Assembly: GCA_964469605.1 (NCBI GenBank)
Contig: CAYXZA010000005.1
Location: 1 to 57,617, forward strand
DNA: 57,617 nucleotides
Reading direction: 5' to 3'
From: an uncultured Candidatus Saccharibacteria bacterium
Lineage (GTDB): Bacteria; Patescibacteriota; Minisyncoccia; Phycocordibacterales; DATDWN01
The notes under the pieces were generated by a model. It searched no databases and was not told the DNA's origin. It worked only from the letters and a program-made list of their open reading frames with translations. Positions 847 through 38,555 of the stretch are shown piece after piece. The translations under genes and the position numbers were made by a program. Within the stretch, counting starts at the first letter, position 1; the number at the start of each line of letters is the position of its first letter.

Positions 847-919
847 TGTGTTGTCCTCCTGGTTGAGGTTTGGAATGTGCCGATTTTGAGCCGCATTAGC
901 TCTAATCTATTACCATTCT

Positions 920-948
920 AGAATATCTAGTATTATCTGTTCTGTCAA
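920..948 (-). promoter_or_regulatory. Putative sigma70-type promoter for CDS 385..846
   Basis: Minus strand reads TTGACA (948-943), 17-nt spacer, TATTCT (925-920). Confidence 0.4.
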
Positions 949-962
949 GAGCAAAAAGCCGG

Positions 963-1685: not shown

Positions 1686-1696
1686 CTAAAAGCGCT

Positions 1697-1940: not shown

Positions 1941-2005
1941 ATTCAGCCCATTCCTCGGCGCTTCGCGCCGAGCGCATTTCCGGCGGGAATTTGAATTTCG
2001 ATTTA

Positions 2006-15820: not shown

Positions 15821-16096
15821 CTAAAACTTTAAATATAAACAGAAATATATAATAGTAAAAATTATTATTTGAATAAAAACTGTTAGATATAATTTAGGTA
15901 TTTCTTTGATTTTTATAACATTATTTAATAAATATTTATATAATCCATTGGATATAAAATAACCAACAAGAGCAAATATCGTCACTATCAAAAGGTTTGA
16001 ACCTTCGGGATCTTTAAAAAAGAAAAACATCAACCTAGAAAAAATAAAAGATGAGATAATGGAAATTATAGTTGTGTATTTTAAGCTAGAGTGCAT
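15821..16096 (-). CDS. Small membrane protein, hypothetical
   Basis: 91 aa, three hydrophobic segments. Confidence 0.45.
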   Translation of the reverse strand: MHSSLKYTTIISIISSFIFSRLMFFFFKDPEGSNLLIVTIFALVGYFISNGLYKYLLNNVIKIKEIPKLYLTVFIQIIIFTIIYFCLYLKF

Positions 16097-16264
16097 CTGT
16101 TTTTAATTTTTTGTATTCCATCCAACGATCCACTGGTAAAGCAGTTGTATAAGTAATTTTTTTATATGATAAATTATATCATAACTCAAAGTTAAGGAAT
16201 CAATAACCACACAATAAACCATATATAAAAATTTATATAAACTCTAATTACAAATCAAAATTTA

Positions 16265-16297
16265 CAAAAAGCTAAGGCTCACCTCTAAAGGTGAGCC
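16265..16297 (-). terminator. Intrinsic terminator after small CDS 16308..16523
   Basis: ggctcacc/ggtgagcc 8-bp hairpin (16276-16297), followed on the minus strand by ttagcttttt. Confidence 0.6.
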
Positions 16298-16307
16298 AAA
16301 AAACAAG

Positions 16308-16523
16308 CTACGATCGACGACAAGCCTTCCTTTTTCCATACTTTATTTTCCATTGACACTGCCTTTCAAGCAGGTAGGAAATAAAGTATTTGGTGTTTGG
16401 GTGCTGAGAAACCACCACCGATGGCCCGTTTATCTCAGCAACAGTGGCAATACCGCCACAATTTTTTCCACCATCACCAAATGATCCTGGAACGTAGATA
16501 CTGCCACCAATACTGATCTGCAT
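16308..16523 (-). CDS. Small Gly-rich orphan protein (71 aa), relatively GC-rich
   Basis: SD aaaggag 6 nt upstream of the ATG. It has its own promoter and terminator. Gly-rich N-terminal half and basic C-terminus (KRKACRRS). Confidence 0.55.
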   Translation of the reverse strand: MQISIGGSIYVPGSFGDGGKNCGGIATVAEINGPSVVVSQHPNTKYFISYLLERQCQWKIKYGKRKACRRS

Positions 16524-16543
16524 GAAAACTCCTTTCTTCCTAA

Positions 16544-16572
16544 GCTATACCAAATATATAAAATATTGTCAA
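16544..16572 (-). promoter_or_regulatory. Sigma70-type promoter for small CDS (module copy 1)
   Basis: Minus strand: TTGACA (16572-16567), N17, TATAGC (16549-16544). Positions 16551-16574 are identical to 17215-17238. Confidence 0.6.
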
Positions 16573-16619
16573 TATATAAGCATGAATATTCTAAAATATA
16601 AATAAAAAATTTTATATAA

Positions 16620-17201
16620 AGACAAAGCGGACAGGGAACCTCGAAAGGTTTTACCTGTCCGCCACAGATTGCGGCAGTGTGGCCCTAAAGAGAAAACAAG
16701 AGCACACCTCAACCGCAAGAAGAACAAAAACACTACACTACACCAACAATGTCAGGCGCGAATGATCTCTAAAGATTCCATCCGCCGACCTGCGAGAGGT
16801 AAGCCATTAGAGACAAGCCCTTAGAAAGCAAAACCCTCTCGTCTCTTTACGGACGAGAAATCCTTTGAGAAGACTCCCCGTCCGTCAAACAAACACAGGG
16901 GTTGTTCCCTACCGTGGGAAGACCCCCCAATACCCCTACCCCACACATGTTCTCGAGAACACTGAGGTCTTTCAGAACAAGAAGCTTGCGCTTGGTTTTT
17001 TGGGCGGATACATTGGTGATCAACACCTCCCTAAACCACTTCCCATTCTATAGAACCGGTGATACCACGCCGGCATGAAACTCACTAAACCTTACTCTTG
17101 CAGGCTAGTGTTCCTCAAAATGAAACCCGTCAAATAACTGACGCGGCTGAAAGGCTATTTAACCCGATACCCTGAAGACTTAGGCATCGAACAACCTTAC
17201 A
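16620..17201 (-). ncRNA. Candidate large (~580 nt) structured non-coding RNA, class unknown
   Basis: Consensus promoter immediately upstream, and an intrinsic terminator at the 3' end (gcggacagg/cctgtccgc, 16627-16662, then a U-rich tail). No ORF of 60 aa or more on this strand. GC-rich against AT-rich flanks. Multiple helices, e.g. 16849-16855 pairs 16879-16885; a 14-nt palindrome at 16948-16961; G-tracts from 16921-16946. Confidence 0.5.
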
Positions 17202-17207
17202 TATACA

Positions 17208-17236
17208 ATTATATCAAATATATAAAATATTGTCAA
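17208..17236 (-). promoter_or_regulatory. Consensus sigma70 promoter (module copy 2)
   Basis: Minus strand: TTGACA (17236-17231), exactly 17 nt, TATAAT (17213-17208). Confidence 0.7.
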
Positions 17237-17629
17237 TACCCAATATTCTTCCATAAAAGATGAGGTTCATCTACTGATATTGTACTTACAATATATTTCG
17301 AAGAGATGGGGTAGATAAAAATTAACTAAAGAAGCCTTCTTGTACCACATAAAAGTGACCAATCAATAAGTTGTAGAAATATACTACAGGCTATTTTTTA
17401 TTTTTATTCACCTCCCCGTACTCTTTATGTAATTTAAGTTTTTTTGGAGTTCTTGGATATGTATGAAAATTAGTGAAATCTTTTTTAATATATAAATTGT
17501 TAAAATACTTTTTAAATAAATTTATTGAAAATTCGCATATCTTTAGCTTCCTAAAGAGTACAGTATGTATTTGGAATTAAACAATGCTAGTTGTCTTGGG
17601 TAGTATTCGAACTAGTATAGTTATATACC

Positions 17630-17662
17630 AAGTAAAGCTAAACCGCTTCTTTCGAAGCGGTT
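17630..17662 (-). terminator. Terminator hairpin after SPFH gene
   Basis: aaccgcttc tttc gaagcggtt (17641-17662), 24 nt after the stop codon. Confidence 0.5.
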
Positions 17663-17685
17663 AAGATCAAGTCTGATTCTAGTGC

Positions 17686-18495
17686 CTAGACAGAAGCAGC
17701 TTCTTTAGTTTCGATTCCTCCTCCAGCCCCTCTCCCTAATTCCTCGAGCACTCTTTCAACTATTGATTCATCTGGTTTCCTAGGATGAGGTCGATTATTT
17801 GCTTGTTTAACATTAACAGTGGTAGTCGCTACAAGAGGCGTACCCACAAGAACAGAAGCAAGTCCTGAATCAATATCAAGAGTAGAGGTTAATTTTGCTG
17901 CCTCCACTAAAGCTTCCAACTTAAACCTTACACCGATTTTAGAAAAAATAAGTTGAGCAGATTCAGTACTTGGAGCACAACTAGTGAGTTTGAACTGAAT
18001 AAATTCAATACCCCATTCTTCAGCTTTTGTTCTAATGACCTGGAGAAGATTCTGCGAGATCTTTTCGGTTTCTTCCAGTTCAGTGTAGTCTCTTTTGGAG
18101 ACTTCATCCCGAAGGATACCCATACCAAGATCTTCGATTGAATATCCTAGATTTTCTATCTCGAAAAGAGCTTTGTAGACATCTCTGATTCTGAAAATAA
18201 CAATAGCGTTGACATTGAAAATCAAGCCTTCTCGAATCATGATTCGCTGGTGATCAAACTTAATTGTTTCTTGCCTAACATGATGTCTTTTCAAAGTATC
18301 AACAAAAGGAACAAGAAATGCAAACCCAGGATTGATAACCTTTGGTTCTCCATTCTTATCCCTCACAGCTTTACCAAAACGGAGTTTAATACCCTGTTCA
18401 CCCTCATGGACAAAACGAAAAGCTTTAAAGAAACCTACTACTACCGAAATTAGAATTGTCCAGATTTCCACCGGAACAATATTGAACATGTTCAT
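17686..18495 (-). CDS. SPFH/Band 7 (stomatin/HflC-like) domain protein
   Basis: N-terminal TM, then V.EGEQGIKLRFGK, INPGF.FLVPFVD.....V..Q, and a coiled-coil tail. Confidence 0.8.
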   Translation of the reverse strand: MNMFNIVPVEIWTILISVVVGFFKAFRFVHEGEQGIKLRFGKAVRDKNGEPKVINPGFAFLVPFVDTLKRHHVRQETIKFDHQRIMIREGLIFNVNAIVIFRIRDVYKALFEIENLGYSIEDLGMGILRDEVSKRDYTELEETEKISQNLLQVIRTKAEEWGIEFIQFKLTSCAPSTESAQLIFSKIGVRFKLEALVEAAKLTSTLDIDSGLASVLVGTPLVATTTVNVKQANNRPHPRKPDESIVERVLEELGRGAGGGIETKEAASV

Positions 18496-19982: not shown

Positions 19983-20085
19983 GATCCTCAATTTTTATAC
20001 AAAAGAAAATTGGGACTACCACATGATGTAGATAGTCCCAAAAATTTGGCGCAAATGCAAGAATCAAAAGATTCAAACATTCAAG

Positions 20086-21012
20086 CTACAAGGAACATTG
20101 TTGCGGAACGAAACCGGATGCCGTCCCGCAGCTCGCATCGACAATGCCAACGAAGAACGTGTCGAACCTGACCCCACCACTACTGAAGGACACGTCGAAC
20201 CTGACCCCACCACTGCCGAAGCGGAAGAATGGAGCGAGGCCGAAGTGAACATCAGAATCCGGATCGTCGAACTCGTCACCCGAGCAGTCGATCGACAGGT
20301 CGTTGTAGTCCTGTAAACGTTCTAGGTGAGTAAGAAGCATGATCCCGATCTCGAATGCACCAAGACCGAACTCCATTCCGTTGTCGATCATGATTTCACG
20401 TGCTCGGCGGACCGAGCGACCACGATGACGCAAACCGAACTGAGCAGCGACGACGAGGATGTCCTGATCCTTCTGCTCGTTTCCGAGCCTCTGGAACACC
20501 TCCATCTTCACCCTTGACTCATGAAGTTGCTGATCGTTGATCTGCCCCTCTTTCCAGTTGTAGAATTTGCCCTGACGCTGTAACTTCATCGCGTCGAGCA
20601 CCTTCTGAACTGCTTGAGTGTAAGTCGGCGCGATCGTCTGCCACTTAGGGATGGCGAACCATCCCTCAGCACCCACAGGAACTTCACGCTCGGCGAGTTT
20701 TTCGTTGGCGAACCCGATTTCGGGGAAGATCTTGCGCAGAATGTTGCACTGCTCCTTGATCGACTTTGGTTTCTTGTAGCCCGACAAGTAGCCGTGAGTA
20801 GACACTACTTCCTCATCTTTGAACTTGTTAGTGACCCGATTATTGGAGATGAAATCGGCGATGAGATCGGCGAGACCTGGACTGTCGTTGACCCACTGAG
20901 CTTCTTTTTCGGAAAGCCTTGCCTTGTTGTACGAGGCTTCGACGATCGACATAAACTCGAGACCTTTGGGGTCCCGTGAGGTGACTGCTGACGGGACCAA
21001 TGTTTTAAGCAT
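20086..21012 (-). CDS. GC-rich orphan protein (~308 aa) with C-terminal 11-aa tandem repeat
   Basis: Long ORF. SD aaggag abuts the first ATG (21021) but lies 9 nt from the second ATG (21012), so 21012 is preferred. The 21-nt core gtcgaacctgaccccaccact repeats at 20161-20181 and 20194-20214, giving SGGVRFD x2. Confidence 0.7.
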   Translation of the reverse strand: MLKTLVPSAVTSRDPKGLEFMSIVEASYNKARLSEKEAQWVNDSPGLADLIADFISNNRVTNKFKDEEVVSTHGYLSGYKKPKSIKEQCNILRKIFPEIGFANEKLAEREVPVGAEGWFAIPKWQTIAPTYTQAVQKVLDAMKLQRQGKFYNWKEGQINDQQLHESRVKMEVFQRLGNEQKDQDILVVAAQFGLRHRGRSVRRAREIMIDNGMEFGLGAFEIGIMLLTHLERLQDYNDLSIDCSGDEFDDPDSDVHFGLAPFFRFGSGGVRFDVSFSSGGVRFDTFFVGIVDASCGTASGFVPQQCSL

Positions 21013-21071
21013 CGGAACCATCTCCTTTCATGTGTTAGATTCGCCCTAACCGTTGCGACTCTTCTCTTTGT

Positions 21072-21130
21072 GAGACGAGCTTTTTAGGTCTTACTTAATG
21101 TATAAAATTAAGACTCAAAAAGCTCGTCTC
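21072..21130 (-). promoter_or_regulatory. Long 5'-UTR hairpin of CDS 20086..21012
   Basis: gagacgagcttttt (21072-21085) is the exact reverse complement of aaaaagctcgtctc (21117-21130). Inner gtctta/taagac pairing extends the stem. Confidence 0.55.
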
Positions 21131-21164
21131 AACAGTGATCTATAAAGAATTTAACGTGTATAGT

Positions 21165-21192
21165 ATAATACCATACATAGGCACTTTGTCAA
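21165..21192 (-). promoter_or_regulatory. Sigma70-type promoter for CDS 20086..21012
   Basis: Minus strand: TTGACA (21192-21187), N16, TATTAT (21170-21165). Confidence 0.55.
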
Positions 21193-21214
21193 TAGATGAA
21201 AATAATGTTGTATT

Positions 21215-21439
21215 TTAATGGTTTTTGACAAGATATTCCCTGAGAGTATAGGCTCTTGTGAAAGTTTCCTTTTGTTTATTTTTAGACGAAAGAGTTGTTA
21301 TTGGTCTACTTTGGACAATATAAAATTTTCCATCCTCGTCAACCTATTCCATATCACAAAGAAAGCTATAAGGAACAGATATACCTGCTTGATACATTTT
21401 CCTAAGAGAAGCTTCTTTACCTCCAAGCAACCAAAGCAT
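21215..21439 (-). pseudogene. Remnant of a PEP/pyruvate-utilising (PPDK_N-type) enzyme gene with internal deletion
   Basis: Minus strand reads MLWLLGGKEASLRKMYQAGISVPYSF then a stop. A second frame reads VDEDGKFYIVQSRPITT. These match the start and end of the PPDK N-terminal ATP-grasp domain. Confidence 0.4.
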
Positions 21440-21707
21440 TATTTTTATTTAATTCAGAAAAATTAGAGACTAATTTCATAATTAATTACATTCTAACAAA
21501 AAATCACCAATTTTAAAATCAGTGATTTTTTATCTTGAATACTGCTCTCAGCAAGTATGCCATTTTTCATAATAGATTCTCATACAGTTTCCACATCTCA
21601 GACAGGTCACTTTTTACTTTTTAAAAATATTGTTATTTTGATACATCTCAAGTGTCGCTCGACTTTGCTGGCCACATGGGAGAATATTCGAACTGACTTA
21701 TGATTCC

Positions 21708-22211
21708 CTATTCAAGAATTTTATTAAAAAACTCATACTTTTTTCTCATATACACCTTGAAATCTATTTTTCCATACGGAAGTTTTATCTGTTCATATTC
21801 TTTCTGCAAATTTTTGTCTTTTGATAAAATTTCAAAAACTTTTAACTGATCCTGAATATTTAGAGAATTTTTATCTGTTAAATACAGTTCTACATCAAAA
21901 CCATCCTGTATGAATTCCCATTTAATTGATGTCCCTTTTCTTTTTGGTTCACCAAATAATTCCTCAATTAATGGAGAATATTTTTGATAGTCTTCTGGAA
22001 TCGAAAGAATGTTGATATCAATATCGTTTTGACCAGCTATTCCGAGAGCAGATGCTCCACCCCAATGAATTGGAAGAGTAGGTATTTTTTCTTTTAACTT
22101 AGTAATTATTTCTTTTGCAACTTCTTGAACATGCGGATCAAAAGGTTTGACTTCGATTATTTTTCCTTCAGGTAATGTTGAAAGATACTTTTCTTGAGAT
22201 TCTTTAATCAT
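21708..22211 (-). CDS. GrpB family protein
   Basis: 167 aa. HWGGASALGIAGQNDIDI and a Y...K..F C-terminus fit GrpB/UPF0157. Confidence 0.65.
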   Translation of the reverse strand: MIKESQEKYLSTLPEGKIIEVKPFDPHVQEVAKEIITKLKEKIPTLPIHWGGASALGIAGQNDIDINILSIPEDYQKYSPLIEELFGEPKRKGTSIKWEFIQDGFDVELYLTDKNSLNIQDQLKVFEILSKDKNLQKEYEQIKLPYGKIDFKVYMRKKYEFFNKILE

Positions 22212-32200: not shown

Positions 32201-32229
32201 AAAAAGTATTATATTATGAACCTAGAATC

Positions 32230-32266
32230 AAAAAACCACTTTGAAAATTTTCCAAAGTGGTTTTTT
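32230..32266. terminator. Near-perfect palindrome / bidirectional terminator at the left edge of the GC-rich island
   Basis: aaaaaaccactttg (32230-32243) pairs with caaagtggtttttt (32253-32266). Confidence 0.55.
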
Positions 32267-32268
32267 AA

Positions 32269-32398
32269 TCAGCATTGAGCTACAAGCCAATAAAATGAAA
32301 GTGTTAATAAAAAAATAATGCTAGAGGAGAGAGATTTTAATCTAGCTCACATTATTTTTAATTTATTTTCACATTTATGACTAATAGCTCAATACTGA
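32269..32398. repeat. 14-nt inverted repeat pair flanking ~100 nt directly downstream of hammerhead 1
   Basis: tcagcattgagcta (32269-32282) versus tagctcaatactga (32385-32398), 13 of 14 complementary. Confidence 0.5.
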
Positions 32399-32412
32399 CT
32401 TTTTTTATTATA

Positions 32413-32465
32413 CCCTGTTTCGTTCTTTCGAACTCATCAGTCGAGATACACATCTCGAGACAGAG
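32413..32465 (-). ncRNA. Hammerhead ribozyme, type III (HHR-1)
   Basis: Minus strand: CUCUGUC UCGAGAU-GUGU-AUCUCGA CUGAUGA GUUC-GAAA-GAAC GAAA CAGGG. All core nucleotides are present. GUC cleavage triplet, predicted cut between 32459 and 32458. Stem III 6 bp, stem I 7 bp, stem II 4 bp with GNRA loop. Confidence 0.85.
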
Positions 32466-32557
32466 GAGGTATCAAACCAAGACACCTCCAGTTAAACCAA
32501 GGGAACAGTAGTTGGACTGTTTCCAGAACCTGCACCTGCCAACTCAGGATTAAAGAA

Positions 32558-33667
32558 CTACTTCTTGTTGCGTGCACCCCACTTAGAAGCGAGAGCCTCG
32601 AGCGAAACGGACAACTTAACTGACTGTTTTGGTATCGATTGAGCTACCTGCGGATTATGTAACCGTCTAGCAAGGGTAACTTCAACCTCTGCAACAACAG
32701 CATTGGCGTTAGTTATCCATTCCACGCACTCTTCTTTCGTTTCTGGAATGGAAGCAAAGTAAAAACTATACAACTTATCCAGCAGACTAGATTCAATCCC
32801 GCATGAGGCGTACGTGTCGTAGAGACTCCTGACATGATTTTGGACTTTTTCAGCCTCGGAAAGAATATTTTCGATTTCACGCCGATCTCTCGCTTTAACT
32901 TTGGCTTTTTCCAGCTCAACCTGTGCATTGTTGAAAGCTGTCTCGGCTTGCATACGGACCCGAAACCACTCTGTCTTCCATATGATCGAATCCGAAGACC
33001 AAGACCTGGAAGCAGTCAAGGTTCCAAAAGCAAAAAGGTCTTCGCCTGTCATCACGCACCTGCCGTAAACGACAGTGATGATGTCAGAGAGGACTGTTTT
33101 GTCGGTGATCTCCGTTGGAACAGCAATGACTGGCCTATCAATCCAGCGACTCCACTGCCCTTCATTCAGCCGACTCTTCATCGATTGCTTCAGAGCAACA
33201 ATGTCGCTTCCTTCTGCAAGTGCCGACCACGAGGTCGACGACTTGAGAACGATGTGAACTGCGCGTCCGCCAGGGAGCTTCACTCCCTCATTTGGCAATT
33301 CATTCCAGCAGTTGCTAGAAATGAACTCATCACCGAGCGTTACTTGCGGAAGTCTCGGCGTGTCGCAGTACGGTTCACGATACTCCACTGGCACCACCTT
33401 GCCGAGAACAATGATCGAATCGGGATTCATTTCCCGAGTCAGATTCACCAACCCGACATCAAGCGCCGGAAGCCGGAGTAAATCGAGATTGGAAATTGTC
33501 GCGCAAGAGATCGCACCTTTGAGACGCGATCCGAGCCACAGTTTCCATTCCTCGTTCGTCATGACGGGGAAAACGATTTCCCCCGCGCGATTGTTCCACT
33601 TCCGAGCCTCCATCTGGATGGCCCGGTTGGCGGCGATAACCGCCTGGATAGTTTCAAAATTCGTCAT
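32558..33667 (-). CDS. GC-rich orphan protein (369 aa) with C-terminal coiled coil
   Basis: SD gaggag 5 nt upstream of the ATG, preceded by conserved leader copy A. No family recognised. Confidence 0.75.
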   Translation of the reverse strand: MTNFETIQAVIAANRAIQMEARKWNNRAGEIVFPVMTNEEWKLWLGSRLKGAISCATISNLDLLRLPALDVGLVNLTREMNPDSIIVLGKVVPVEYREPYCDTPRLPQVTLGDEFISSNCWNELPNEGVKLPGGRAVHIVLKSSTSWSALAEGSDIVALKQSMKSRLNEGQWSRWIDRPVIAVPTEITDKTVLSDIITVVYGRCVMTGEDLFAFGTLTASRSWSSDSIIWKTEWFRVRMQAETAFNNAQVELEKAKVKARDRREIENILSEAEKVQNHVRSLYDTYASCGIESSLLDKLYSFYFASIPETKEECVEWITNANAVVAEVEVTLARRLHNPQVAQSIPKQSVKLSVSLEALASKWGARNKK

Positions 33668-33671
33668 TTTA

Positions 33672-33764
33672 TCTCCTCAAGCAAGGGAACATCATGTCCC
33701 ACCCCTGCTCGGCCCAATTAAGGACTTTCCATCTTGCGACGGACTTTGTAGAGCTGGGTGCTCG
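33672..33764 (-). promoter_or_regulatory. Conserved structured leader, copy A (upstream of ORF369)
   Basis: ~93 nt, near-identical to 36247-36340. Three hairpins: gagca..(u)gcuc; ccgucGCAAga(u/c)gg; and agcagggg/cccuugcu, which ends 1 nt before the SD. Confidence 0.6.
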
Positions 33765-33918
33765 AGAAAATAATTGGAAATTTTTAAGTTTCCACACGAA
33801 CTCCTATCAGCTTTCGAATTGATTCGTTAGCTGAATAAGAGAGGCAACAACATGGTCGCCTCGTAAACCTAAACCATGCACCCCTGTATATAAAATATGA
33901 AGAGGGTGCGAAAGAACA

Positions 33919-34281
33919 TCAAAGGAACAGTTGAAGGGTGTCCTCTAGCCCCCGAAGTCTGAACTTAAATATGTAACCATCACTGATCTGTATGAGTTCA
34001 GACTCCTCAATGGTATCGCGGGGAAACTGCCGAAGAAGGAATCTTTCCACCTCCAGCAACATTTCCTCTCTCGTCAGGCGAGTAAGCAGTCTCTCTCTCA
34101 TCTCTTTCCACTCTTCAACAAAGAAGAGTGACCTGAGATGATCAGAATACTCCTCGGCGATTTTTTCACTACTAGGAACTTCTCCCGTTTTTTTAGTCCA
34201 AAACCACAATTCGCCAAAACAAAAGCGAAAGTATTCCCAGACCAGAAACGGTAGAAGGAAGACGTACTTTACAAGCCACAT
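33919..34281 (-). CDS. Small orphan protein (120 aa) with hydrophobic N-terminus
   Basis: SD aggag upstream; starts 9 nt after the helicase stop. N-terminal hydrophobic/aromatic segment. Confidence 0.6.
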   Translation of the reverse strand: MWLVKYVFLLPFLVWEYFRFCFGELWFWTKKTGEVPSSEKIAEEYSDHLRSLFFVEEWKEMRERLLTRLTREEMLLEVERFLLRQFPRDTIEESELIQISDGYIFKFRLRGLEDTLQLFL

Positions 34282-34289
34282 CTTTTCTC

Positions 34290-36242
34290 CTAATAGATAC
34301 TCATTTGTCCCGCGAGCCAGGAACAGAAAACGTCTGCCGCTTTGGGATGAGTCGGCGTAGGCACGATCTCTTCTTTGATTTTGGAACCATTGAAGAAAAC
34401 ATGCTGATTTGAAACAACCGAATCTTGAATTGGATCAAACCAAAGATCAACATCTTCAAACCTAACCAGTTGAGGAGCGATCTCCATCAACCACATCGGA
34501 TCAACCTTTGTAGCCATGCGAACGAGCCGCAGAGTCATGGTACCACCGCGACGAGTCTTGATTTCAAGATCGAATGGCAGTCCAACGATCCAATCGCCAG
34601 ACCTCACCACCGACTCCCGAGCAAGCTGCCGATCGGTATCATCCCCATTTCGCCACCGACCGTAGTCGTTGCAGTAGAGGTGATCCACCATTCCGGCGCA
34701 AACAGCCTTCAGGATATTATCCCTCTTACCGCTCGACCGAAAATTACGAACTTTGTCACGCAACGCTTCCGCGAGGTGGCGACGCTTCTCCTTTGCTTGG
34801 AAGAAGGCTCTGACGAAGATGCCGTTGTCGACCATCACGTCCTTCTGCATGTTCTCAGCCGCTTTCCATACTGCAAGCTGAGCCATGAGGTCTGACGAAT
34901 CCTCGGTGCCAATGAGACTCCTCCACTTGGGAGTCTCCCATTCGCTCTTCGGACGAGCAGTGATTTCTCCCTGCTCGAGAATGGCAGCGATCGTTACAAC
35001 GTCGTCCACCACTCCCAGCCGATCGGCTTCTACCACCATCCGTGCAAACTGCACGGAGAGTGGCAAACGCGCGACTTGCTTACCGATTTGAGTAACGGCA
35101 CCAGTTTCCGAAAGACAACCGAGCGCCTTGAGTGCACGCTTGGCTTCGTGGATCTCGCTTTTCTTGGGCTGATGGAAGAAGTCAAGCTTCTCCATATCAA
35201 ACCCCGCTTCAGCGAGACGCAGAACTGTCTGATCAAGCCGAGAACGGAGAATTTCCGCTACCGGGAAATCAGGGCGATCGTATGCCGGACACATGTCCAC
35301 ATAGATGCCTGGCTTCGTGCGACCAGCGCGACCTTTGCGCTGCTTGGAGTCGGCTAACGAAATCGGTTTCAGATAAAGTCCTTCGACTCCATCCACCACC
35401 TCCACTCGCCGTTCCATTCCGCCATCCACCACCGCATCGATGTCGTCGATCGTGACACTTGTTTGCGCTACGTTCGTCGATACGACGCACTTGGCTCGCG
35501 GGTAGCGACGAAAAGCTTTCGCCTGTTCGTGGCTATCTAACTCGCCGTGAAGCGGGAGGACTTCAGCCGACACACCCGAACCCTGAATGATTTGGATGGT
35601 TTCGCCGATTTCCTTTTTACCTGCTTCAAACACAAGGACGTTGCGTCCTTGCTGAAGCAGAGCAATCGCTTCAGTTGCTGTCTTTGTCGTGGTCGGTCGC
35701 TGTTCCGTCACCGGAAACAAACAACCTGGCACAGATATGATCGGTGCGCCATCGAAGAACATCGAAAGCTTTTCGGCTTCCAAAGTGGCACTCATGAGCA
35801 CCACCTTAAAATCGACACCCCGAGACAGCATGAGCTTAGCCCATGCAACCAGAGTCTCGATATTGATGTTCCACTCGTGTACCTCGTCGAGGACGAGGAT
35901 CTGGTGCTTGCCCGCACCCATCAGTTCCCGCACAAGTGCGAGACCATCAGTGCAAAACAAGCAACGAGTCCACTCGCTGTCTTTCCGCTCCATTGCGGTG
36001 CGGAAGCCAACAATCAAGCCAAGATCCTCACCCCATTCTTCAGCTACCCGTTCAGAAACCGTACGAGCAGCGAGACGACGCGGCTGGGTGACAACCAAGT
36101 CATACCCCGCCTCGAGCAGGTATTGTGGCACTTGTGTGCTTTTTCCCGCTCCGGTTTCGGCTGTGATGACCACGACCGCGTTTTCCTTGATCAACTTTAG
36201 GATCTGATCCTTGAAGTTAGCGATGGGTAACGTTGTATTCAT
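34290..36242 (-). CDS. DEAH/RHA-family helicase (HrpA/HrpB-like, compact 650 aa)
   Basis: Motif I AETGAGKST, Ia TQPRRLAA, II LDEVHE, III SAT, V TNVAQTSVTI, VI QRKGRAGR, followed by HA2-like and OB-like C-terminal regions. Confidence 0.9.
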   Translation of the reverse strand: MNTTLPIANFKDQILKLIKENAVVVITAETGAGKSTQVPQYLLEAGYDLVVTQPRRLAARTVSERVAEEWGEDLGLIVGFRTAMERKDSEWTRCLFCTDGLALVRELMGAGKHQILVLDEVHEWNINIETLVAWAKLMLSRGVDFKVVLMSATLEAEKLSMFFDGAPIISVPGCLFPVTEQRPTTTKTATEAIALLQQGRNVLVFEAGKKEIGETIQIIQGSGVSAEVLPLHGELDSHEQAKAFRRYPRAKCVVSTNVAQTSVTIDDIDAVVDGGMERRVEVVDGVEGLYLKPISLADSKQRKGRAGRTKPGIYVDMCPAYDRPDFPVAEILRSRLDQTVLRLAEAGFDMEKLDFFHQPKKSEIHEAKRALKALGCLSETGAVTQIGKQVARLPLSVQFARMVVEADRLGVVDDVVTIAAILEQGEITARPKSEWETPKWRSLIGTEDSSDLMAQLAVWKAAENMQKDVMVDNGIFVRAFFQAKEKRRHLAEALRDKVRNFRSSGKRDNILKAVCAGMVDHLYCNDYGRWRNGDDTDRQLARESVVRSGDWIVGLPFDLEIKTRRGGTMTLRLVRMATKVDPMWLMEIAPQLVRFEDVDLWFDPIQDSVVSNQHVFFNGSKIKEEIVPTPTHPKAADVFCSWLAGQMSIY

Positions 36243-36246
36243 TTAG

Positions 36247-36340
36247 TCTCCTCAAGCAAGGGGAATTTCTTTCCCACCCCTGCTCGGCCCAATTAAGGAC
36301 TTTCCGTCTTGCGACGGACTTTGTAGAGCAGGGATGCTCG
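36247..36340 (-). promoter_or_regulatory. Conserved structured leader, copy B (upstream of helicase)
   Basis: Same three-hairpin arrangement as copy A. The third hairpin's loop differs completely, while its 8-bp stem is retained. Confidence 0.6.
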
Positions 36341-36364
36341 GAAAACAAACTGAAGCACAATTTT

Positions 36365-36413
36365 CTGTTTCGTTCTTTCGAACTCATCAGGGTAAGTACG
36401 CACTTACCGACAG
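36365..36413 (-). ncRNA. Hammerhead ribozyme, type III (HHR-2)
   Basis: Minus strand: CUGUC GGUAAGU-GCGU-ACUUACC CUGAUGA GUUC-GAAA-GAAC GAAA CAG. Core and stem II are identical to HHR-1. Stem I is entirely different in sequence but still 7 bp. Predicted cut between 36409 and 36408. Confidence 0.8.
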
Positions 36414-36508
36414 TGAGGAGTTTTGCAATTTACCTTTTGCAGGTACTCCTCAAACCTTTTGAACCATAGTAATTATTTATGAGTCGCTACCACAAACGAC
36501 TACACCGA

Positions 36509-37054
36509 CTACTGATGGATGGTGTGTGAGCAGAATAAACCATCGGGAGCTTTTTTCAGTTCCTTAAGGTCTCTCGCCACCCCCCAACCAGCTTCGCTGG
36601 TACGACCCAGTAGATAGGACATCTGCTGGGCACTGAGAGGGTAAAATTGAACTCCCACATCAACACTTTTTTTCTCCCGACCTCCTTCAAAAGTGGGAGC
36701 TTGATACTCTTTGTATTCATGAGAGTACCACGCCGGACCATTGTTTCCATCCCACTGATGTACACCATCACTCAAACGGACAGTGTCCACCTTGAGACGA
36801 AAGTTCAGATAGACCCTTCCGCGTTTGACCGTGATTGAGTCGCAGTACGAGAGTTCCCAATTAGTGGGCGTGGCCTCAAACTCTTCTTTTTTGCCAGGGC
36901 GGCTTAACAGCCACTCTGACAGAGTTTTCCCTTTCACGGCGGTGAACCGCTGGGAAGCGGGCAGTGGCATACTTTTTTCCATCACCTTGACAAACTTTGC
37001 CACCACGGCGCGGGCGCGGTGAGAAAAAGGAAACTCACAAATTGATTCATACAT
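36509..37054 (-). CDS. GC-rich orphan protein (181 aa)
   Basis: Complete ORF with SD gtgagg upstream; no family recognised. Confidence 0.7.
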   Translation of the reverse strand: MYESICEFPFSHRARAVVAKFVKVMEKSMPLPASQRFTAVKGKTLSEWLLSRPGKKEEFEATPTNWELSYCDSITVKRGRVYLNFRLKVDTVRLSDGVHQWDGNNGPAWYSHEYKEYQAPTFEGGREKKSVDVGVQFYPLSAQQMSYLLGRTSEAGWGVARDLKELKKAPDGLFCSHTIHQ

Positions 37055-37102
37055 ACAAACCTCACTTCGCCGTTTATCGCCCGGCCGGCGGAATTTCCCT
37101 CA

Positions 37103-37157
37103 GTACAGAGGGCAAATTGTTAATCAATATTATTGATTAACAATTTGCCCTCTGTAC
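37103..37157. repeat. Perfect 55-bp palindrome (27-bp arms, 1-nt centre)
   Basis: gtacagagggcaaattgttaatcaata t tattgattaacaatttgccctctgtac, located 49 nt upstream of the ORF181 start codon. Confidence 0.95.
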
Positions 37158-37234
37158 ACTATCTATCTATAGCTAAACTTTTTATTCAGTCTTCCAAATC
37201 AACGATTCTTTTAAAAATCACAAACTTAGAAGAT

Positions 37235-37263
37235 GAGCCGAGTGCAAACCATGAACTCGGCTC
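37235..37263 (-). terminator. Hairpin terminator after the 23-codon ORF
   Basis: gagccgag/ctcggctc stem, followed on the minus strand by a U-containing tail. Confidence 0.5.
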
Positions 37264-37337
37264 GTGAACCTAAACCATGAGACAAAGAGTCAGCTCTGTC
37301 TCGAAAGAACATTACCCACTGACTTGGGATTAAAAAT

Positions 37338-37409
37338 CTACTTGGACTTTGCAGCCAAAGCGTCCTGGCGGGATAGACAAACTACCCCGTTAACGACGTA
37401 AAGAGTCAT
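37338..37409 (-). CDS. Possible 23-codon micro-ORF (MTLYVVNGVVCLSRQDALAAKSK)
   Basis: SD aaggag 9 nt upstream of the ATG. Very short, so coding status is unproven. Confidence 0.3.
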   Translation of the reverse strand: MTLYVVNGVVCLSRQDALAAKSK

Positions 37410-37532
37410 TTTGTTGATCTCCTTTAAACCTATTCTCAAATATATTTCATGCTTTGTGGAACAGAAATATATAAACAATCCAGGCCCACTGTCTTGCAAC
37501 ATGCGCCCGTGCCAATTGTGCCAATCGAGAGA

Positions 37533-37712
37533 TTACTTTTTCTTCAAATTGGCCACCACCGTGACGGCGAACCGCGGATCGTGACGGAGAGCATTGAGCC
37601 CCGCCACGACTGCGAGAGGGGCACGCCCCTCGCGAGCCATCATCCTGATGGATTGATTGTTCAGAACCGCCGGGCGACCCGGCGTCGGGTAGACTTGATT
37701 ATTGGTATTCAT
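37533..37712 (-). CDS. Small GC-rich orphan protein (59 aa)
   Basis: Start at MNTNNQ with SD aaggag 10 nt upstream. The longer 108-aa ORF-track version has no SD and runs through hairpin-rich sequence. Confidence 0.55.
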   Translation of the reverse strand: MNTNNQVYPTPGRPAVLNNQSIRMMAREGRAPLAVVAGLNALRHDPRFAVTVVANLKKK

Positions 37713-38327
37713 GATAGATAATCTCCTTTTTCTCCTCGATTTTACCCTCGAGGCGGGTTTGTACTTTAGGGATTTTGCAACCCCTCTTTCCGACACTAAA
37801 CTTATCAATATATACTGTCGGAGAAGAGGAATAACATTGCAGTCTGTGTTTACACACAAATTATTCTACGTTTTCCTTGCCCGTCATAGCTTTACGCGAC
37901 GTCGGACTTAACTTCTCTATTCAATTATCAAAGATCTTCTTATCCTCCTTCCTCTTTTTGATTAGCGAAGACATTCTTGGAAGCAATGACTGGTTTAGTT
38001 CCATTCCTTCCAAACGATGTCCTAACTTGTGGTTAGTATCGGTTGATTTATAGAAATGAACCCACATAAGATGTGCATTAAATTGTTTATTTCTTCCTCT
38101 CTCCTCTTACCACGCTTTCGGCCGTCGGTCACCGTCTGTAATATCTTTCGATAATCCAGAACAGAGATGGAGAACAATTTAATATCTATCTCCTTGTAAA
38201 AAAACCAGGTGGAACGTCTCTTACGAGCTTCCTATAACTCTCTCCTCATTGAGAGAAGTGGAGAGGCGACTTTGTGTAATAATTTAATTCACATCCACAC
38301 TTCTTTTAACAAGATGTTTACAATTGA

Positions 38328-38381
38328 TTTTGAAAACAAAACAGACCATTAGCTCCTTGAGAAGAGCCAATGGTCTGTTTA
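38328..38381 (-). terminator. Intrinsic terminator inside the long untranslated tract
   Basis: acagaccatt/aatggtctgt plus gctc/gagc inner stem (38341-38378), followed on the minus strand by uuuguuuuc. Confidence 0.6.
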
Positions 38382-38526: not shown

Positions 38527-38555
38527 ATTATATCATATTGATATAATAATGTCAA
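38527..38555 (-). promoter_or_regulatory. Consensus sigma70 promoter
   Basis: Minus strand: TTGACA (38555-38550), exactly 17 nt, TATAAT (38532-38527). Confidence 0.7.

What the first reader, a model, noticed from the sequence alone, without database searches (positions are those of the whole stretch)
32413..36413. Two canonical type III hammerhead ribozymes bracket a 3.95 kb helicase-encoding segment
On the minus strand, 32465-32413 and 36413-36365 each read as a complete hammerhead: a GUC cleavage triplet, a closed 7-bp stem I, CUGAUGA, stem II GUUC-GAAA-GAAC, and GAAA followed by the stem III return strand. The 26-nt core plus stem II (CUGAUGAGUUCGAAAGAACGAAACAG) is identical in both copies. 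Stem I is completely different in sequence (UCGAGAU/AUCUCGA versus GGUAAGU/ACUUACC) yet stays perfectly paired. That is the covariation expected of functional ribozymes rather than a chance motif match. Both lie in the same orientation as the genes. Self-cleavage at both sites would excise an RNA running from 36408 to 32459 (3950 nt). This RNA carries leader B, the DEAH helicase, ORF120, leader A and ORF369, with 5'-OH and 2',3'-cyclic phosphate ends. These are the end chemistries that RtcB-type ligases join, and the geometry resembles HHR-flanked retrozyme or viroid-like circular RNAs. A ligated junction (HHR-1 5' strand CUCUGUC joined to the HHR-2 body) would regenerate a hammerhead with a 5-bp stem III, one pair better than genomic HHR-2. 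At minimum the ribozymes would uncouple this cassette from the upstream ORF181 and define its 3' end. Ribozyme-delimited, possibly circularising mRNA for a helicase module has not been described in bacteria to my knowledge.
Basis: partly seen in the sequence, partly recalled or inferred. Interest (0 to 1): 0.88.

Follow-up and report, generated by a model that had tools for sequence, protein, structure and literature searches.

The report
Hammerhead ribozymes flanking split HrpA-like helicase
Two genuine self-cleaving hammerhead RNAs sit at either end of a two-gene RNA-helicase cassette in a GC-rich island of a small AT-rich bacterial genome; this is a new example of a ribozyme-punctuated operon, a layout already reported in bacteria, and there is no evidence that it makes a circular RNA.

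Summary
On the minus strand, 32466-32412 and 36416-36362 are complete type III hammerheads, with cleavage at 32459|32458 and 36409|36408. Rfam RF00008 scores them 43.3 and 42.6 bits. That is below the curated cutoff of 48.5, but the window-wide E-values are 3.5e-6 and 5.8e-6.

The same hammerhead design recurs in relatives of this locus and in more than 240 metagenome and viral contigs. Covariation in all three stems is very strong (96% paired against 62% in shuffles).

- Ribozymes flanking genes were described in bacteria in 2011, with cleavage shown and circular products sought but not found.
- In relatives of this locus the number and position of the ribozymes vary from zero to three. An obligatory excise-and-circularise mechanism does not fit that.

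New points:
- The "helicase" and ORF369 are the two halves of one HrpA-like RNA helicase, which is a single fused protein in relatives.
- Each ribozyme is part of a repeated intercistronic module: pseudoknot, hairpin, hammerhead, structured leader.
- The whole cassette lies in a 44-56% GC island in a roughly 30% GC genome that is probably Patescibacteria.

The most likely role is transcript end-definition and insulation.

The parts
36362..36416 (-). HHR-2, a type III hammerhead. Cleavage falls between C36409 and G36408. Stem I is 7 bp with loop GCGU, stem II is GUUC/GAAC with loop GAAA, and stem III is only 4 bp.
   Evidence: Sequence. RF00008 42.6 bits, E 5.8e-6 for the window. Own model R1 77.7 bits. 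The minimum-energy fold keeps stems I and II but not stem III.
32412..32466 (-). HHR-1, a type III hammerhead. Cleavage falls between C32459 and U32458. Stem I is 7 bp with loop GUGU, stem II is GUUC/GAAC with loop GAAA, and stem III is 6 bp.
   Evidence: Sequence. RF00008 43.3 bits, E 3.5e-6. R1 84.7 bits. The minimum-energy fold is the canonical hammerhead.
34290..36242 (-). Gene for the N-terminal half of a split HrpA-like DEAH/RHA RNA helicase (650 aa). It holds RecA1, RecA2, the winged helix, the ratchet domain and the region that aligns through the OB domain of solved DEAH helicases.
   Evidence: Pfam DEAD, Helicase_C, HA2_N, HA2_C. NCBIfam HrpA 315 bits, below the equivalog cutoff. PDB sequence hits Prp22/DHX8 at 265 bits and E. 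coli HrpA at 241 bits over residues 4-616. More than 120 homologues at 62% identity or more.
32558..33667 (-). ORF369, the gene for the C-terminal half of the same HrpA-like protein. It is probably the ribosome-binding region.
   Evidence: BLASTP aligns residues 7-369 to residues 654-1010 of the fused 1010-aa homologue P0023 (E 5e-44) and to 654-949 of the 1137-aa P0050. The AlphaFold model has pLDDT 89.5. Its only significant PDB fold match is E. coli HrpA in the disome structure 9gft_B (E 9.8e-6, prob 1.0, TM-score only 0.27). It always lies directly downstream of the helicase in relatives.
33919..34281 (-). ORF120, an ORF with no relatives found that sits at the split point between the two halves of the helicase gene.
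   Evidence: No hit in Pfam, NCBIfam, PHROGs or PADLOC. No homologue in the related loci.
36240..36356 (-). Leader B, the structured 5' UTR of the helicase gene. It ends in the ribosome-binding site GAGGAG and the AUG.
   Evidence: 95-nt direct repeat, 89% identical to leader A. A profile hits only the helicase islands: window, L001, L004, L263, L016. The closing helix CCCUGCUC/GAGCAGGG has one compensatory pair, and the inner hairpin changes sequence between loci while staying paired.
33665..33780 (-). Leader A, a second copy of the same structured 5' UTR, in front of ORF369.
32501..32544 (-). Putative H-type pseudoknot that begins 13 nt after the ORF369 stop codon. Stem 1 is AGUUGG/CCAACU and stem 2 is GGAAACAG/CUGUUCC.
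   Evidence: Alignment A6 of five module copies: 90% of cells paired against 36-54% when slid, and 9 pairs with changes on both sides. The sample is small and I drew the structure by eye.
32465..32489 (-). Hairpin GGAGGUGUC-UUGGUUU-GAUACCUCC that ends 6 nt before the HHR-1 cleavage site. It would be the 3'-terminal hairpin of the released mRNA.
   Evidence: Predicted in the context fold. An equivalent hairpin (GAGGAG/CUCCUC or GGAGG/CCUCC) precedes every hammerhead in the window and in L004.
36414..36452 (-). Hairpin GAGGAGUA...CUCCUC immediately upstream of HHR-2. It would be the 3'-terminal hairpin of the ORF181 transcript.
   Evidence: the homologous hairpin is in L004 264-300.
33772..33925 (-). 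Decayed copy of the hairpin-plus-hammerhead module between ORF120 and leader A. The core is unrecognisable (…AGCUGAUAGGAGUUCGUGUGGAAAC).
   Evidence: Seen by alignment and by eye only. The model does not detect it. The equivalent position in L004 holds a hammerhead with the core change CCGAUGA.
37170..37340 (-). Another module copy after the 54-codon ORF (ORF54, 37338-37502). The pseudoknot and hairpin are intact, and a dead hammerhead remnant follows.
   Evidence: The 3'UTR profile hits 37340-37236 at E 5e-19. Alignment A6. Its pseudoknot stem 1 is AGUCAG/CUGACU, which is compensatory relative to AGUUGG/CCAACU.
36509..37054 (-). ORF181, the island gene upstream of HHR-2. No family match.
37103..37157 (.). 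Perfect 27-nt inverted repeat upstream of ORF181, overlapping a weak promoter-like site. It is a candidate operator or promoter for the ORF181-helicase transcript.
32225..32411 (-). Low-GC tail after HHR-1: a long imperfect hairpin carrying the conserved motif AUCUCUCUCCUCUAGC, then an intrinsic-terminator-like hairpin and U-run (32270-32225).
   Evidence: The tail profile hits only the window, L004, L005 and L006. Alignment A4. Inverted repeats I2, I3 and I6.
32270..38330 (-). The island as a whole. The part from 32400 to about 38300 is 44-56% GC in a genome of about 30% GC; the conserved low-GC tail after HHR-1 is also included.
   Evidence: Composition profiles. The same contrast is seen in relatives. 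Homology with L004, L001 and L005 starts and stops inside this range.

Best explanation
The window is a chromosomal piece of a small, AT-rich bacterium, probably Patescibacteria (CPR). It carries a roughly 6-kb GC-rich island of minus-strand genes. The genes are separated by copies of one composite RNA module: a pseudoknot just after the stop codon, a GGAGG/CCUCC hairpin, a type III hammerhead, and a structured roughly 110-nt leader ending in the ribosome-binding site and AUG.

Two of the four module copies still have an intact hammerhead. These two flank the genes for an HrpA-like DEAH RNA helicase that is split into a helicase half and a C-terminal half (ORF369).

I infer that the island is transcribed as one or a few long RNAs and that both ribozymes cut themselves co-transcriptionally. 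This would cut the helicase message free of ORF181 and of downstream RNA. The released 3950-nt mRNA would start with a 5'-OH flush against the 7-bp stem I hairpin. It would end in a pseudoknot, a hairpin, six nucleotides and a 2',3'-cyclic phosphate. Such ends should shield it from end-dependent RNases and make its expression independent of where the island sits, like the engineered RiboJ insulator.

Shown: the ribozyme structures, their conservation and covariation, the repeated modules, the gene fission and the island composition. Inferred: cleavage in vivo, co-transcription, and the stabilising or insulating purpose.
For: Genuine ribozymes:
- Full-length RF00008 matches with E about 1e-6.
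- All core positions are intact.
- The two copies differ at all 7 stem I pairs yet stay paired.
- Family-wide covariation over 124 sequences: 96.3% paired against 62.2% shuffled, and 751 cells with changes on both sides against 213.

Recurrent association with this cassette:
- Hammerheads lie inside the GC-rich helicase island in 9 of about 19 distinct loci. They flank helicase plus C-terminal gene in the window, L001, L004 and L015.
- The other 51 kb of the window has none.

Selection on the outer copies:
- Two other module copies in the same island have lost the ribozyme.
- The copy between the two half-genes is core-mutated in L004 (U4 to C) and absent in L001 and L015. Unneeded copies therefore decay while the flanking ones stay perfect.

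Module anatomy that fits end-protection:
- A hairpin ends 6 nt before each cleavage site.
- Pseudoknot covariation.
- The leader is conserved in front of both half-genes.

Precedent: bacterial multi-hammerhead arrays cleave in vitro and in E. coli and were proposed to process long transcripts into gene-length mRNAs (PMC3088659).

The host encodes RNase J, a 5'-end-dependent nuclease. That 5'-terminal hairpins block it is established knowledge from Bacillus subtilis and was not tested here.
Against: - No expression or cleavage data exist for this locus.
- Both Rfam scores are below the curated cutoff.
- HHR-2 has only a 4-bp stem III, and thermodynamic folding prefers a competing CUG/CAG pairing. 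Its efficiency is therefore uncertain.
- About half of the related helicase islands have no hammerhead, so the ribozymes are dispensable for the helicase itself.
- In B. subtilis the 5'-OH product of the glmS ribozyme is degraded by RNase J1 (my knowledge). Cleavage could therefore destabilise rather than stabilise the downstream RNA.
- No convincing promoter for a long island transcript was found.
Confidence: 0.6

Rival explanations
1. Excision and circularisation. After both cuts, the 3950-nt RNA is joined end to end by an RtcB-type ligase or by the hammerhead's own reverse reaction. This would give a circular mRNA or a mobile RNA intermediate, analogous to retrozymes or viroid-like RNAs.
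For: - The end chemistry is right for RtcB (established ribozyme chemistry).
- The two stem III halves are compatible: the chimeric stem III would be 5 bp against 4 bp in HHR-2.
- A flanking pair at 3.9-4.3 kb recurs in four loci.
- Within a locus the two copies and their flanks are near-identical direct repeats: 195 nt at 87-98% in L001 and 275 nt at 90-96% in L015. This resembles LTR-like duplication.
- The middle ribozyme, which would cut a circle, is dead or missing.
Against: - Circular or spliced products were sought and not found in bacterial multi-hammerhead loci (PMC3088659).
- The number and position of the ribozymes vary among relatives: one only in L005 and L007, both upstream in L021, after other genes in L263, none in about ten loci.
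- There is no reverse transcriptase, integrase or RtcB in the island or the window.
- The ribozyme has one polarity and the element is chromosomal DNA.
- The island extends about 1.9 kb beyond HHR-2 and about 190 nt beyond HHR-1, so the ribozymes do not mark the ends of the mobile unit.
- A short stem III favours product release over religation.
Confidence: 0.1
2. Regulatory ribozymes. Cleavage is not constitutive. It is modulated, for example by the encoded RNA helicase unwinding or remodelling the hammerhead or leader, or by the conserved leader acting as a sensor. Cleavage would then tune helicase expression, possibly by exposing the 5'-OH RNA to RNase J as with glmS.
For: - An RNA helicase gene sits directly behind a ribozyme and a conserved multi-helix leader in at least five loci.
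- The same leader precedes both half-genes.
- The host has RNase J.
- HHR-2's marginal stem III and its competing fold would make it sensitive to remodelling.
- The tail after HHR-1 and the pre-ribozyme hairpins carry UCUCCUC, which is complementary to the leaders' GAGGAGA ribosome-binding site.
Against: - Purely inferential. No ligand, protein-binding or switching structure has been identified.
- The leader matches no Rfam family.
- The same hammerhead design occurs in hundreds of contigs with no helicase nearby, so it needs no helicase.
Confidence: 0.15
3. Inherited baggage. The hammerheads came with a phage-derived or otherwise mobile DNA segment and have no present role in this host. The two intact copies simply have not decayed yet.
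For:
- Two of the four module copies in the island are already dead.
- Half of the related islands lack hammerheads.
Against: - The two intact copies have diverged at 14 stem I positions while keeping every pair and every core nucleotide. That requires selection on the fold after duplication.
- The position just upstream of the helicase leader is kept in five loci whose helicases are only 46-86% identical.
Confidence: 0.12
4. Chance resemblance: the sites are not ribozymes.
For: Rfam scores are below the gathering threshold.
Against: E about 1e-6 for each of two sites in one window. Homologues show overwhelming covariation. The loose motif is also enriched: 7 found against 1.95 expected, and the most in any of 100 shuffles was 6.
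Confidence: 0.01

Closest known systems
Clustered hammerhead ribozymes flanking genes in bacterial prophage or mobile DNA (Perreault et al. 2011, PLoS Comput Biol, PMC3088659; examples in Clostridium scindens, Azorhizobium caulinodans and Agrobacterium tumefaciens around ardA)
   Same: - Several same-strand hammerheads lie in intergenic spacers and bracket single genes or short gene blocks.
- The DNA is foreign-looking.
- The proposed role is cutting long transcripts into gene-length mRNAs.
- The idea of circular products has already been raised for these arrays.
- My unbiased pattern hits show the same clustered layout in many contigs, for example L039 (4 copies), L071 (3), L051 (3) and L094.
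   Different: - Here the bracketed genes are a conserved, split HrpA-like helicase, not variable phage genes.
- No integrase or phage gene is in the island.
- The host is probably Patescibacteria.
- The ribozyme is embedded in a larger conserved module (pseudoknot, hairpin, leader, tail) found only in these helicase islands.
Type III hammerheads of plant virus satellite RNAs (virusoids) and Avsunviroidae; Rfam RF00008
   Same: - Same topology (open stem III) and same core.
- Same small design: a 6-7-bp stem I closed by a UGYRU-type loop and a 4-bp stem II closed by GAAA or AAAA.
- Two IMG/VR records of 366 and 377 nt (L190, L218) match my search pattern exactly. By their sizes I take them to be sobemovirus virusoids; this rests on memory and was not checked.
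   Different: - Those are small circular RNA replicons copied by rolling circle, and they are non-coding.
- This element is a DNA-encoded, single-polarity feature of a 4-kb protein-coding transcript.
- Rfam scores here fall 5-6 bits short of the family cutoff.
Retrozymes and Penelope-like elements (eukaryotic retroelements with hammerheads in terminal repeats; review PMC6765202)
   Same: Direct repeats containing a hammerhead bracket a unit of a few kb, and two cuts would release a unit-length RNA with ligatable ends.
   Different: - Retrozymes are non-coding and have a primer-binding site, a polypurine tract and target-site duplications. They depend on a reverse transcriptase and are eukaryotic.
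- No reverse transcriptase was found here, and the unit encodes proteins.
- The island extends beyond both ribozymes.
RiboJ-type ribozyme insulators (engineered; a hammerhead derived from a plant-virus satellite RNA placed upstream of a gene's ribosome-binding site)
   Same: A hammerhead upstream of a defined leader cuts away whatever upstream RNA the transcript started with. It leaves a 5' hairpin and a context-independent 5' UTR.
   Different: RiboJ is synthetic. Here it serves as a functional analogy only (my knowledge), and no such natural role has been demonstrated for this locus.
E. coli HrpA, the DEAH-box helicase that splits collided ribosomes (PMC11419001; PDB 9gft)
   Same: - The helicase core aligns over residues 4-616 (241 bits).
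- The ORF369 model's only significant fold match is full-length HrpA.
- ORF369 has mixed alpha/beta domains followed by long helices. HrpA's C-terminal region has two alpha+beta domains followed by a helical Hook domain.
   Different: - The protein is split into two polypeptides here; the two genes total 1019 aa against 1300.
- It lacks HrpA's first ~75 residues, which precede the aligned helicase core.
- The NCBIfam HrpA score is far below the equivalog cutoff (315 against 723 bits).
- There is no detectable sequence similarity between ORF369 and the HrpA C-terminal region, and the TM-score is low (0.27).
- Function is untested.

Membership tests
Hammerhead ribozyme, type III | Conserved catalytic core: C3 U4 G5 A6 N7 G8 A9, G12 A13 A14, the A15.1-U16.1 pair, and a cleavage-site nucleotide H17 that is not G | tested here: met
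   Both copies read CUGAUGA ... GAAA, with U16.1 and C17 in GUC and A15.1 opposite. The Rfam alignment covers model positions 1-54 of 54.
Hammerhead ribozyme, type III | Three helices around the core, with stems I and II closed by loops and stem III open | tested here: met
   Stem I is 7 bp, stem II 4 bp, and stem III 6 bp (HHR-1) or 4 bp (HHR-2). Covariation in all three stems across 124 relatives.
Hammerhead ribozyme, type III | Score at or above the curated Rfam gathering threshold for RF00008 (48.5 bits) | tested here: not met
   43.3 and 42.6 bits. E-values remain about 1e-6. Relatives in L004, L005 and L007 score 36.5-42.7 bits. The whole subgroup sits just under the cutoff because of its loop lengths.
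Hammerhead ribozyme, type III | Mg-dependent site-specific self-cleavage giving a 2',3'-cyclic phosphate and a 5'-OH | not testable with these tools
   Needs in-vitro transcription or end-mapping.
Hammerhead ribozyme, type III | Loop 1 - loop 2 tertiary contact that allows fast cleavage at cellular Mg | tested here: inconclusive
   All 9 helicase-island copies found without any loop constraint share loop 1 UGYRU and loop 2 RAAA. This suggests a contact. The large pattern set cannot be used here because the pattern itself imposed these loops.
Bacterial gene-flanking hammerhead arrays (Perreault 2011) | Two or more hammerheads on the coding strand, in intergenic spacers, bracketing one or a few genes | tested here: met
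   The same layout is in L001, L004 and L015.
Bacterial gene-flanking hammerhead arrays (Perreault 2011) | Location in prophage or integrase-associated DNA | tested here: inconclusive
   The island has foreign composition and sits at a different chromosomal place than in the relative L005. But no integrase or phage protein was found: PHROGs gave no hits and Pfam gave none except for the helicase.
Retrozyme / viroid-like circular RNA | Non-coding unit bounded by hammerhead-bearing repeats, with a primer-binding site, polypurine tract and target-site duplication (retrozyme), or a small circular RNA replicon with ribozymes used in rolling-circle replication (viroid-like) | tested here: not met
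   The unit encodes three ORFs. The repeat in the window is only the 49-nt ribozyme at 78% identity. The element is chromosomal DNA with one polarity. Island homology and GC extend beyond both ribozymes. I did not search specifically for a primer-binding site or polypurine tract.
Retrozyme / viroid-like circular RNA | Existence of the covalently closed circular RNA | not testable with these tools
   No transcriptome was available. An attempt to find contigs ending at cleavage sites gave nothing.
HrpA-type DEAH/RHA helicase | RecA1-RecA2-winged helix-ratchet-OB core with the DEAH motif | tested here: met
   Pfam and NCBIfam hits. The alignment to solved DEAH helicases covers residues 4-616.
HrpA-type DEAH/RHA helicase | DUF3418-like C-terminal ribosome-binding region on the same polypeptide | tested here: inconclusive
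   The region is a separate gene (ORF369) here and is fused in P0023 and P0050. The only fold match is HrpA 9gft_B at E 9.8e-6 but TM-score 0.27. A profile search of PDB sequences finds nothing.

The most novel reading that the evidence does not exclude
The composite module (stop codon, pseudoknot, hairpin, hammerhead, structured leader with its own ribosome-binding site and AUG) may be a self-contained, duplicating cassette boundary. On this reading it spreads within these GC-rich islands, has inserted at a domain boundary of a once-fused hrpA-like gene and split it into two translatable cistrons, and lets variable orphan genes be shuffled between module copies. The flanking pair might additionally release a ligatable, possibly circular, 4-kb helicase mRNA. 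That would be a ribozyme-based way of building and rearranging operons in ultra-small bacteria.
Probability: 0.1. Interest if true: 0.8.

Novelty: new member of a known kind. Interest (0 to 1): 0.45.

Why it matters
What the hundreds of bacterial and phage hammerheads do is still unknown fifteen years after their discovery. This locus offers a tractable case for three reasons:
- The ribozymes are tied to one conserved cargo, an RNA helicase related to the ribosome-rescue factor HrpA.
- They sit in a defined module with a 3' pseudoknot and hairpin and a conserved 5' leader.
- Natural controls exist, because relatives have the ribozyme intact, core-mutated, decayed or absent.

Measuring mRNA ends, half-lives and protein output across these variants would test directly whether natural hammerheads act as transcript insulators and end-protectors.

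The gene fission (a fused helicase in some lineages, two cistrons joined by a leader or ribozyme module in others) and the stubbornly high GC of the island in AT-rich hosts are separate small puzzles. If the circular-mRNA reading were true it would be a first for bacteria, but nothing found here favours it.

Tried and rejected
1. The default Rfam scan (gathering thresholds) lists only tRNAs. The hammerheads appear only in E-value mode.
2. Phage origin. Blastn of the island against 50,697 phage records found no match. The helicase protein hits only three mis-filed bacterial hrpA/hrpB genes. PHROGs gave no hit for six island proteins. IMG/VR holds the helicase only at 50% identity on 95-250-kb contigs without hammerheads.
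3. Defence system. PADLOC gave only weak generic helicase hits (Cas3, HamB at E above 1e-6) and nothing credible for the partner proteins. Rejected.
4. Other ribozyme classes at the equivalent position in hammerhead-less relatives. Rfam E-value mode on L008 and L010 found nothing. My own model with filters off also found nothing.
5. Empty-site or boundary test. Look-ups of the window's own CYTH protein and helicase found no records. No flanking direct repeats suggest an attachment site.
6. Evidence for in-vivo cleavage from contig ends. Two 4.2-kb Logan contigs carrying relatives (L265, L266) have no hammerhead and do not end at cleavage sites.
7. RtcB or another RNA ligase. Pfam on 30 window ORFs found none. 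That covers only 57 kb of the genome, so it is not informative about the whole organism.
8. A third live hammerhead in the island. None found. The two remnants rest on alignment only.
9. A guess that L016 5560-5700 was homologous to the conserved block at 37878-37774 was wrong. Ignore that row.

Full report
**1. The observation**

I read both sites on the minus strand.

- HHR-1 (32465-32413): CUCUGUC|UCGAGAU GUGU AUCUCGA CUGAUGA GUUC GAAA GAAC GAAA CAGGG.
- HHR-2 (36413-36365): CUGUC|GGUAAGU GCGU ACUUACC CUGAUGA GUUC GAAA GAAC GAAA CAG.

Every core position of a hammerhead is present. Stems I and II are closed and stem III is open, so these are type III. The 26-nt core plus stem II is identical in the two copies. 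Stem I differs at all seven pairs and stays paired.

The default Rfam scan does not list them, because RF00008 gives 43.3 and 42.6 bits against a curated cutoff of 48.5. In E-value mode both are full-length matches with E = 3.5e-6 and 5.8e-6 for the whole window, and nothing else ribozyme-like is present.

Folding in isolation gives the canonical hammerhead as the minimum-energy structure for HHR-1. For HHR-2 it keeps stems I and II but replaces the weak 4-bp stem III with a CUG/CAG pairing. HHR-2 is therefore the less certain of the two.

**2. More than chance**

A structure-aware scan of relatives of the locus found the same design in L001-L003, L004, L005/L006 and L007. A covariance model built from these added a third copy in L004 and pairs in L015 and L021.

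I then searched public collections with a pattern that fixes only core and loop letters (TGYRT N7 CTGANGAG N3 RAAA N3 CGAAA). The pattern says nothing about pairing, yet nearly every hit has a perfect 7-bp stem I, a perfect 4-bp stem II and at least 3 bp of stem III.

On 124 aligned sequences:
- 96.3% of cells form pairs, against 62.2% in shuffles and 30-47% when the partner is slid.
- 14 of 17 pairs show changes on both sides.
- The covariation score is 0.91 against 0.23 in shuffles.

This is a real and widespread hammerhead subgroup. Many of those contigs carry several same-strand copies 300-1200 nt apart. Two tiny IMG/VR records (366 and 377 nt) also match. By size I take them to be plant virusoids, which is from memory, so the design is that of the classical type III hammerhead.

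**3. Surroundings**

The window is about 30% GC and carries ordinary chromosomal genes: LigA, GatA, GroEL, CTP synthase, RF, FtsX, type IV pilus genes, RNase J and 7 tRNAs.

The stretch from about 32400 to about 38300 is 44-56% GC. HHR-1 sits exactly where GC drops, and HHR-2 is internal to the island.

On the minus strand the island holds, in order:
- two small ORFs;
- a perfect 27-nt palindrome (37103-37157);
- ORF181;
- HHR-2;
- leader B;
- a 650-aa DEAH helicase;
- ORF120;
- leader A;
- ORF369;
- HHR-1.

The nearest named relatives of the helicase come from Patescibacteria genomes: Komeilibacteria, Nomurabacteria, Kaiserbacteria and Pacebacteria. In nearly all related loci the helicase region is 10-25 GC points above its flanks.

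One relative, L005, shares the MFS-RNase J-SBP gene cluster with the window at 65-71% protein identity, about the same as the helicase (69%). Its island, however, sits next to that cluster, whereas in the window it is 20 kb away. The island is therefore not obviously a very recent arrival, but it has moved or the genome has rearranged. Why it stays GC-rich is unexplained.

**4. The cargo is one protein in two pieces**

The helicase has the complete DEAH/RHA core. Solved-structure sequence hits are Prp22/DHX8 at 265 bits and E. coli HrpA at 241 bits over residues 4-616.

ORF369 has no family match by sequence. Four lines of evidence link it to the helicase:
- A homologue always follows the helicase in relatives.
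- It aligns to residues 654-1010 of longer homologues in which the two parts are fused (P0023, 1010 aa, E 5e-44; P0050, 1137 aa).
- Its AlphaFold model (pLDDT 89.5) has a single significant structural match, full-length E. coli HrpA on the collided disome (9gft_B, E 9.8e-6, prob 1.0, but TM-score only 0.27).
- HrpA's C-terminal region binds the ribosome and is required for splitting collided ribosomes (PMC11419001).

So the "helicase module" is a split HrpA-like protein. A ribosome-linked role is an inference.

The split point is filled differently in each lineage:
- ORF120, a dead ribozyme remnant and leader A in the window;
- a core-mutated hammerhead (CCGAUGA) and a leader in L004;
- a leader alone in L001;
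- 13-29 nt in L008 and L015.

**5. The ribozymes belong to a larger repeated module**

Upstream of each cleavage site is a hairpin of the type GGAGG...CCUCC that ends about 6 nt before the cut.

Further upstream, starting about 13 nt after the stop codon, is a putative H-type pseudoknot. In five copies, 90% of cells are paired against 36-54% when slid, and 9 pairs have changes on both sides. The sample is small and I drew the structure by eye.

Downstream of each hammerhead is a leader of about 110 nt with several helices, ending in GAGGAG and the AUG. It is present before both half-genes in the window, L001 and L004, and shows compensatory changes.

After the last hammerhead comes a conserved low-GC tail with the motif AUCUCUCUCCUCUAGC and then a terminator-like hairpin.

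Profiles of the leader, the pseudoknot unit and the tail hit only helicase islands. They hit none of the roughly 240 other hammerhead-bearing contigs.

The window holds four module copies. The ones after ORF54 (about 37340-37170) and after ORF120 (about 33925-33772) have lost the ribozyme. This is visible by alignment but not to the model. Within a locus the copies resemble each other more than copies from other loci: 195 nt at 87-98% in L001 and 275 nt at 90-96% in L015.

**6. How it most likely works**

The shown facts are:
- two intact, selected ribozymes on the coding strand in intergenic spacers;
- decay or loss of the copy between the two half-genes in at least three lineages;
- retention of the flanking copies;
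- a hairpin just before each cut and a hairpin (stem I) flush with the new 5' end.

These fit self-cleavage of a longer transcript that frees a helicase mRNA with protected ends and a fixed leader, whatever the upstream context. That is what long-transcript processing by hammerhead arrays was proposed to do in 2011, and what engineered RiboJ insulators do (my knowledge).

Keeping both half-genes on one RNA would keep their stoichiometry.

I give this reading 0.6. The caveat is that in RNase J organisms a 5'-OH can mark an RNA for decay, as with glmS (my knowledge), so cleavage might instead down-regulate the downstream genes. That possibility merges into the regulatory rival, at 0.15.

**7. 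The circular-RNA idea**

The geometry is compatible, and the recurring flanking pair at 3.9-4.3 kb is suggestive. Several things count against it:
- Relatives have zero, one, two or three hammerheads at varying places.
- The island continues beyond both ribozymes.
- No reverse transcriptase, integrase or ligase is present.
- The one published search for circular products of bacterial hammerhead arrays was negative.

It cannot be tested with these tools. I give it 0.1.

**8. Comparison and novelty**

This works like, and qualifies as, a bacterial gene-flanking hammerhead array built from type III hammerheads. The two caveats are the sub-threshold Rfam score and the untested catalysis. It fails the defining features of retrozymes and viroid-like RNAs.

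New here are:
- the specific and recurrent link to a split HrpA-like helicase in probable Patescibacteria;
- the accessory RNA elements;
- the gene fission at a module site.

I found no paper linking hammerheads with HrpA or with Patescibacteria. Interest: 0.45.

Noticed in passing
window 36240-36356 and 33665-33780 (minus strand); L001 7883-8003 and 9944-10064; L004 349-465 and 2584-2698; weaker in L263 82-236 and L016 6940-6998: A conserved, multi-helix 5' leader of about 110 nt lies in front of both halves of the split helicase gene. It has a closing helix CCCUGCUC/GAGCAGGG, an inner hairpin that changes sequence but stays paired, and a second hairpin just before the ribosome-binding site. 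It matches no Rfam family and could be an unrecognised cis-regulatory RNA.
   Followed up: partly
window 32501-32544 and 37266-37310 (minus strand); L004 about 2437-2482 and about 4428-4472: A putative H-type pseudoknot begins about 13 nt after stop codons, with compensatory changes in both stems among the copies. This placement resembles read-through or exonuclease-blocking pseudoknots. Its role is unknown.
   Followed up: partly
window 32270-32411 (minus strand); L004 4561-4709; L005 12122-12258: A conserved low-GC tail follows the last hammerhead. It is a long imperfect hairpin enclosing AUCUCUCUCCUCUAGC. UCUCCUC is complementary to the GAGGAGA ribosome-binding site of the leaders, and the same CUCCUC appears in the hairpins before each hammerhead. 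After cleavage this would be a separate RNA of about 230 nt ending at a terminator, and so a possible small regulatory RNA.
   Followed up: partly
window 32400-38300; also L001, L005, L010, L013-L016: The helicase island stays at 45-60% GC in hosts of 27-45% GC. This holds even where the helicase is no more conserved than housekeeping genes between the two genomes (69% against 65-71% for RNase J in L005). I have no explanation for the persistent composition.
   Followed up: partly
window 37103-37157: A perfect 27-nt inverted repeat (GTACAGAGGGCAAATTGTTAATCAATA / complement, 1 nt apart) lies about 50 nt upstream of ORF181 and overlaps a weak promoter-like site. It looks like an operator for a dimeric DNA-binding protein.
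   Followed up: no
window 37774-37878 (minus strand); L010 6815-6917; L011 41-143: A 107-nt non-coding block in the upstream part of the island is 78.5% identical to a block upstream of the helicase in L010 and L011. It folds as a long hairpin (CCUCUUCUCCGACA...UGUCGGAAAGAGGGG) with one compensatory pair.
   Followed up: partly
window 38527-38555 and 38339-38380 (minus strand): A perfect sigma-70 consensus promoter (TTGACA-17-TATAAT with an upstream TG) is followed about 150 nt later by a 19-bp hairpin and a U-rich run, just outside the island's upstream GC boundary. This could be a short RNA or an attenuator. It may mark the host transcript into which the island is inserted.
   Followed up: no
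window 1-2000, 16000-18000 and 20000-22000; hairpin at 21067-21138: Three further GC-rich patches (45%, 37% and 41%) stand out in the 30% GC window. The third holds an orphan 311-codon ORF (20086-21021, minus strand) and a long perfect-stem hairpin that scores weakly as a microRNA precursor on both strands. They may be other foreign or structured segments.
   Followed up: no
L190 (366 nt) and L218 (377 nt), IMG/VR records: Two very small "viral" records match the hammerhead pattern exactly and are about 90% identical to each other. Their sizes suggest sobemovirus virusoids. This shows that the bacterial copies share the classical virusoid hammerhead design.
   Followed up: partly
L039 7701-8610; L071 2394-5766; L051 167-964; L094 8152-9232; L134 235-1481: Many unrelated metagenome contigs carry 2-4 hammerheads of this design on one strand, 300-1200 nt apart. 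Ribozyme-punctuated gene arrays are therefore common for this subgroup.
   Followed up: no
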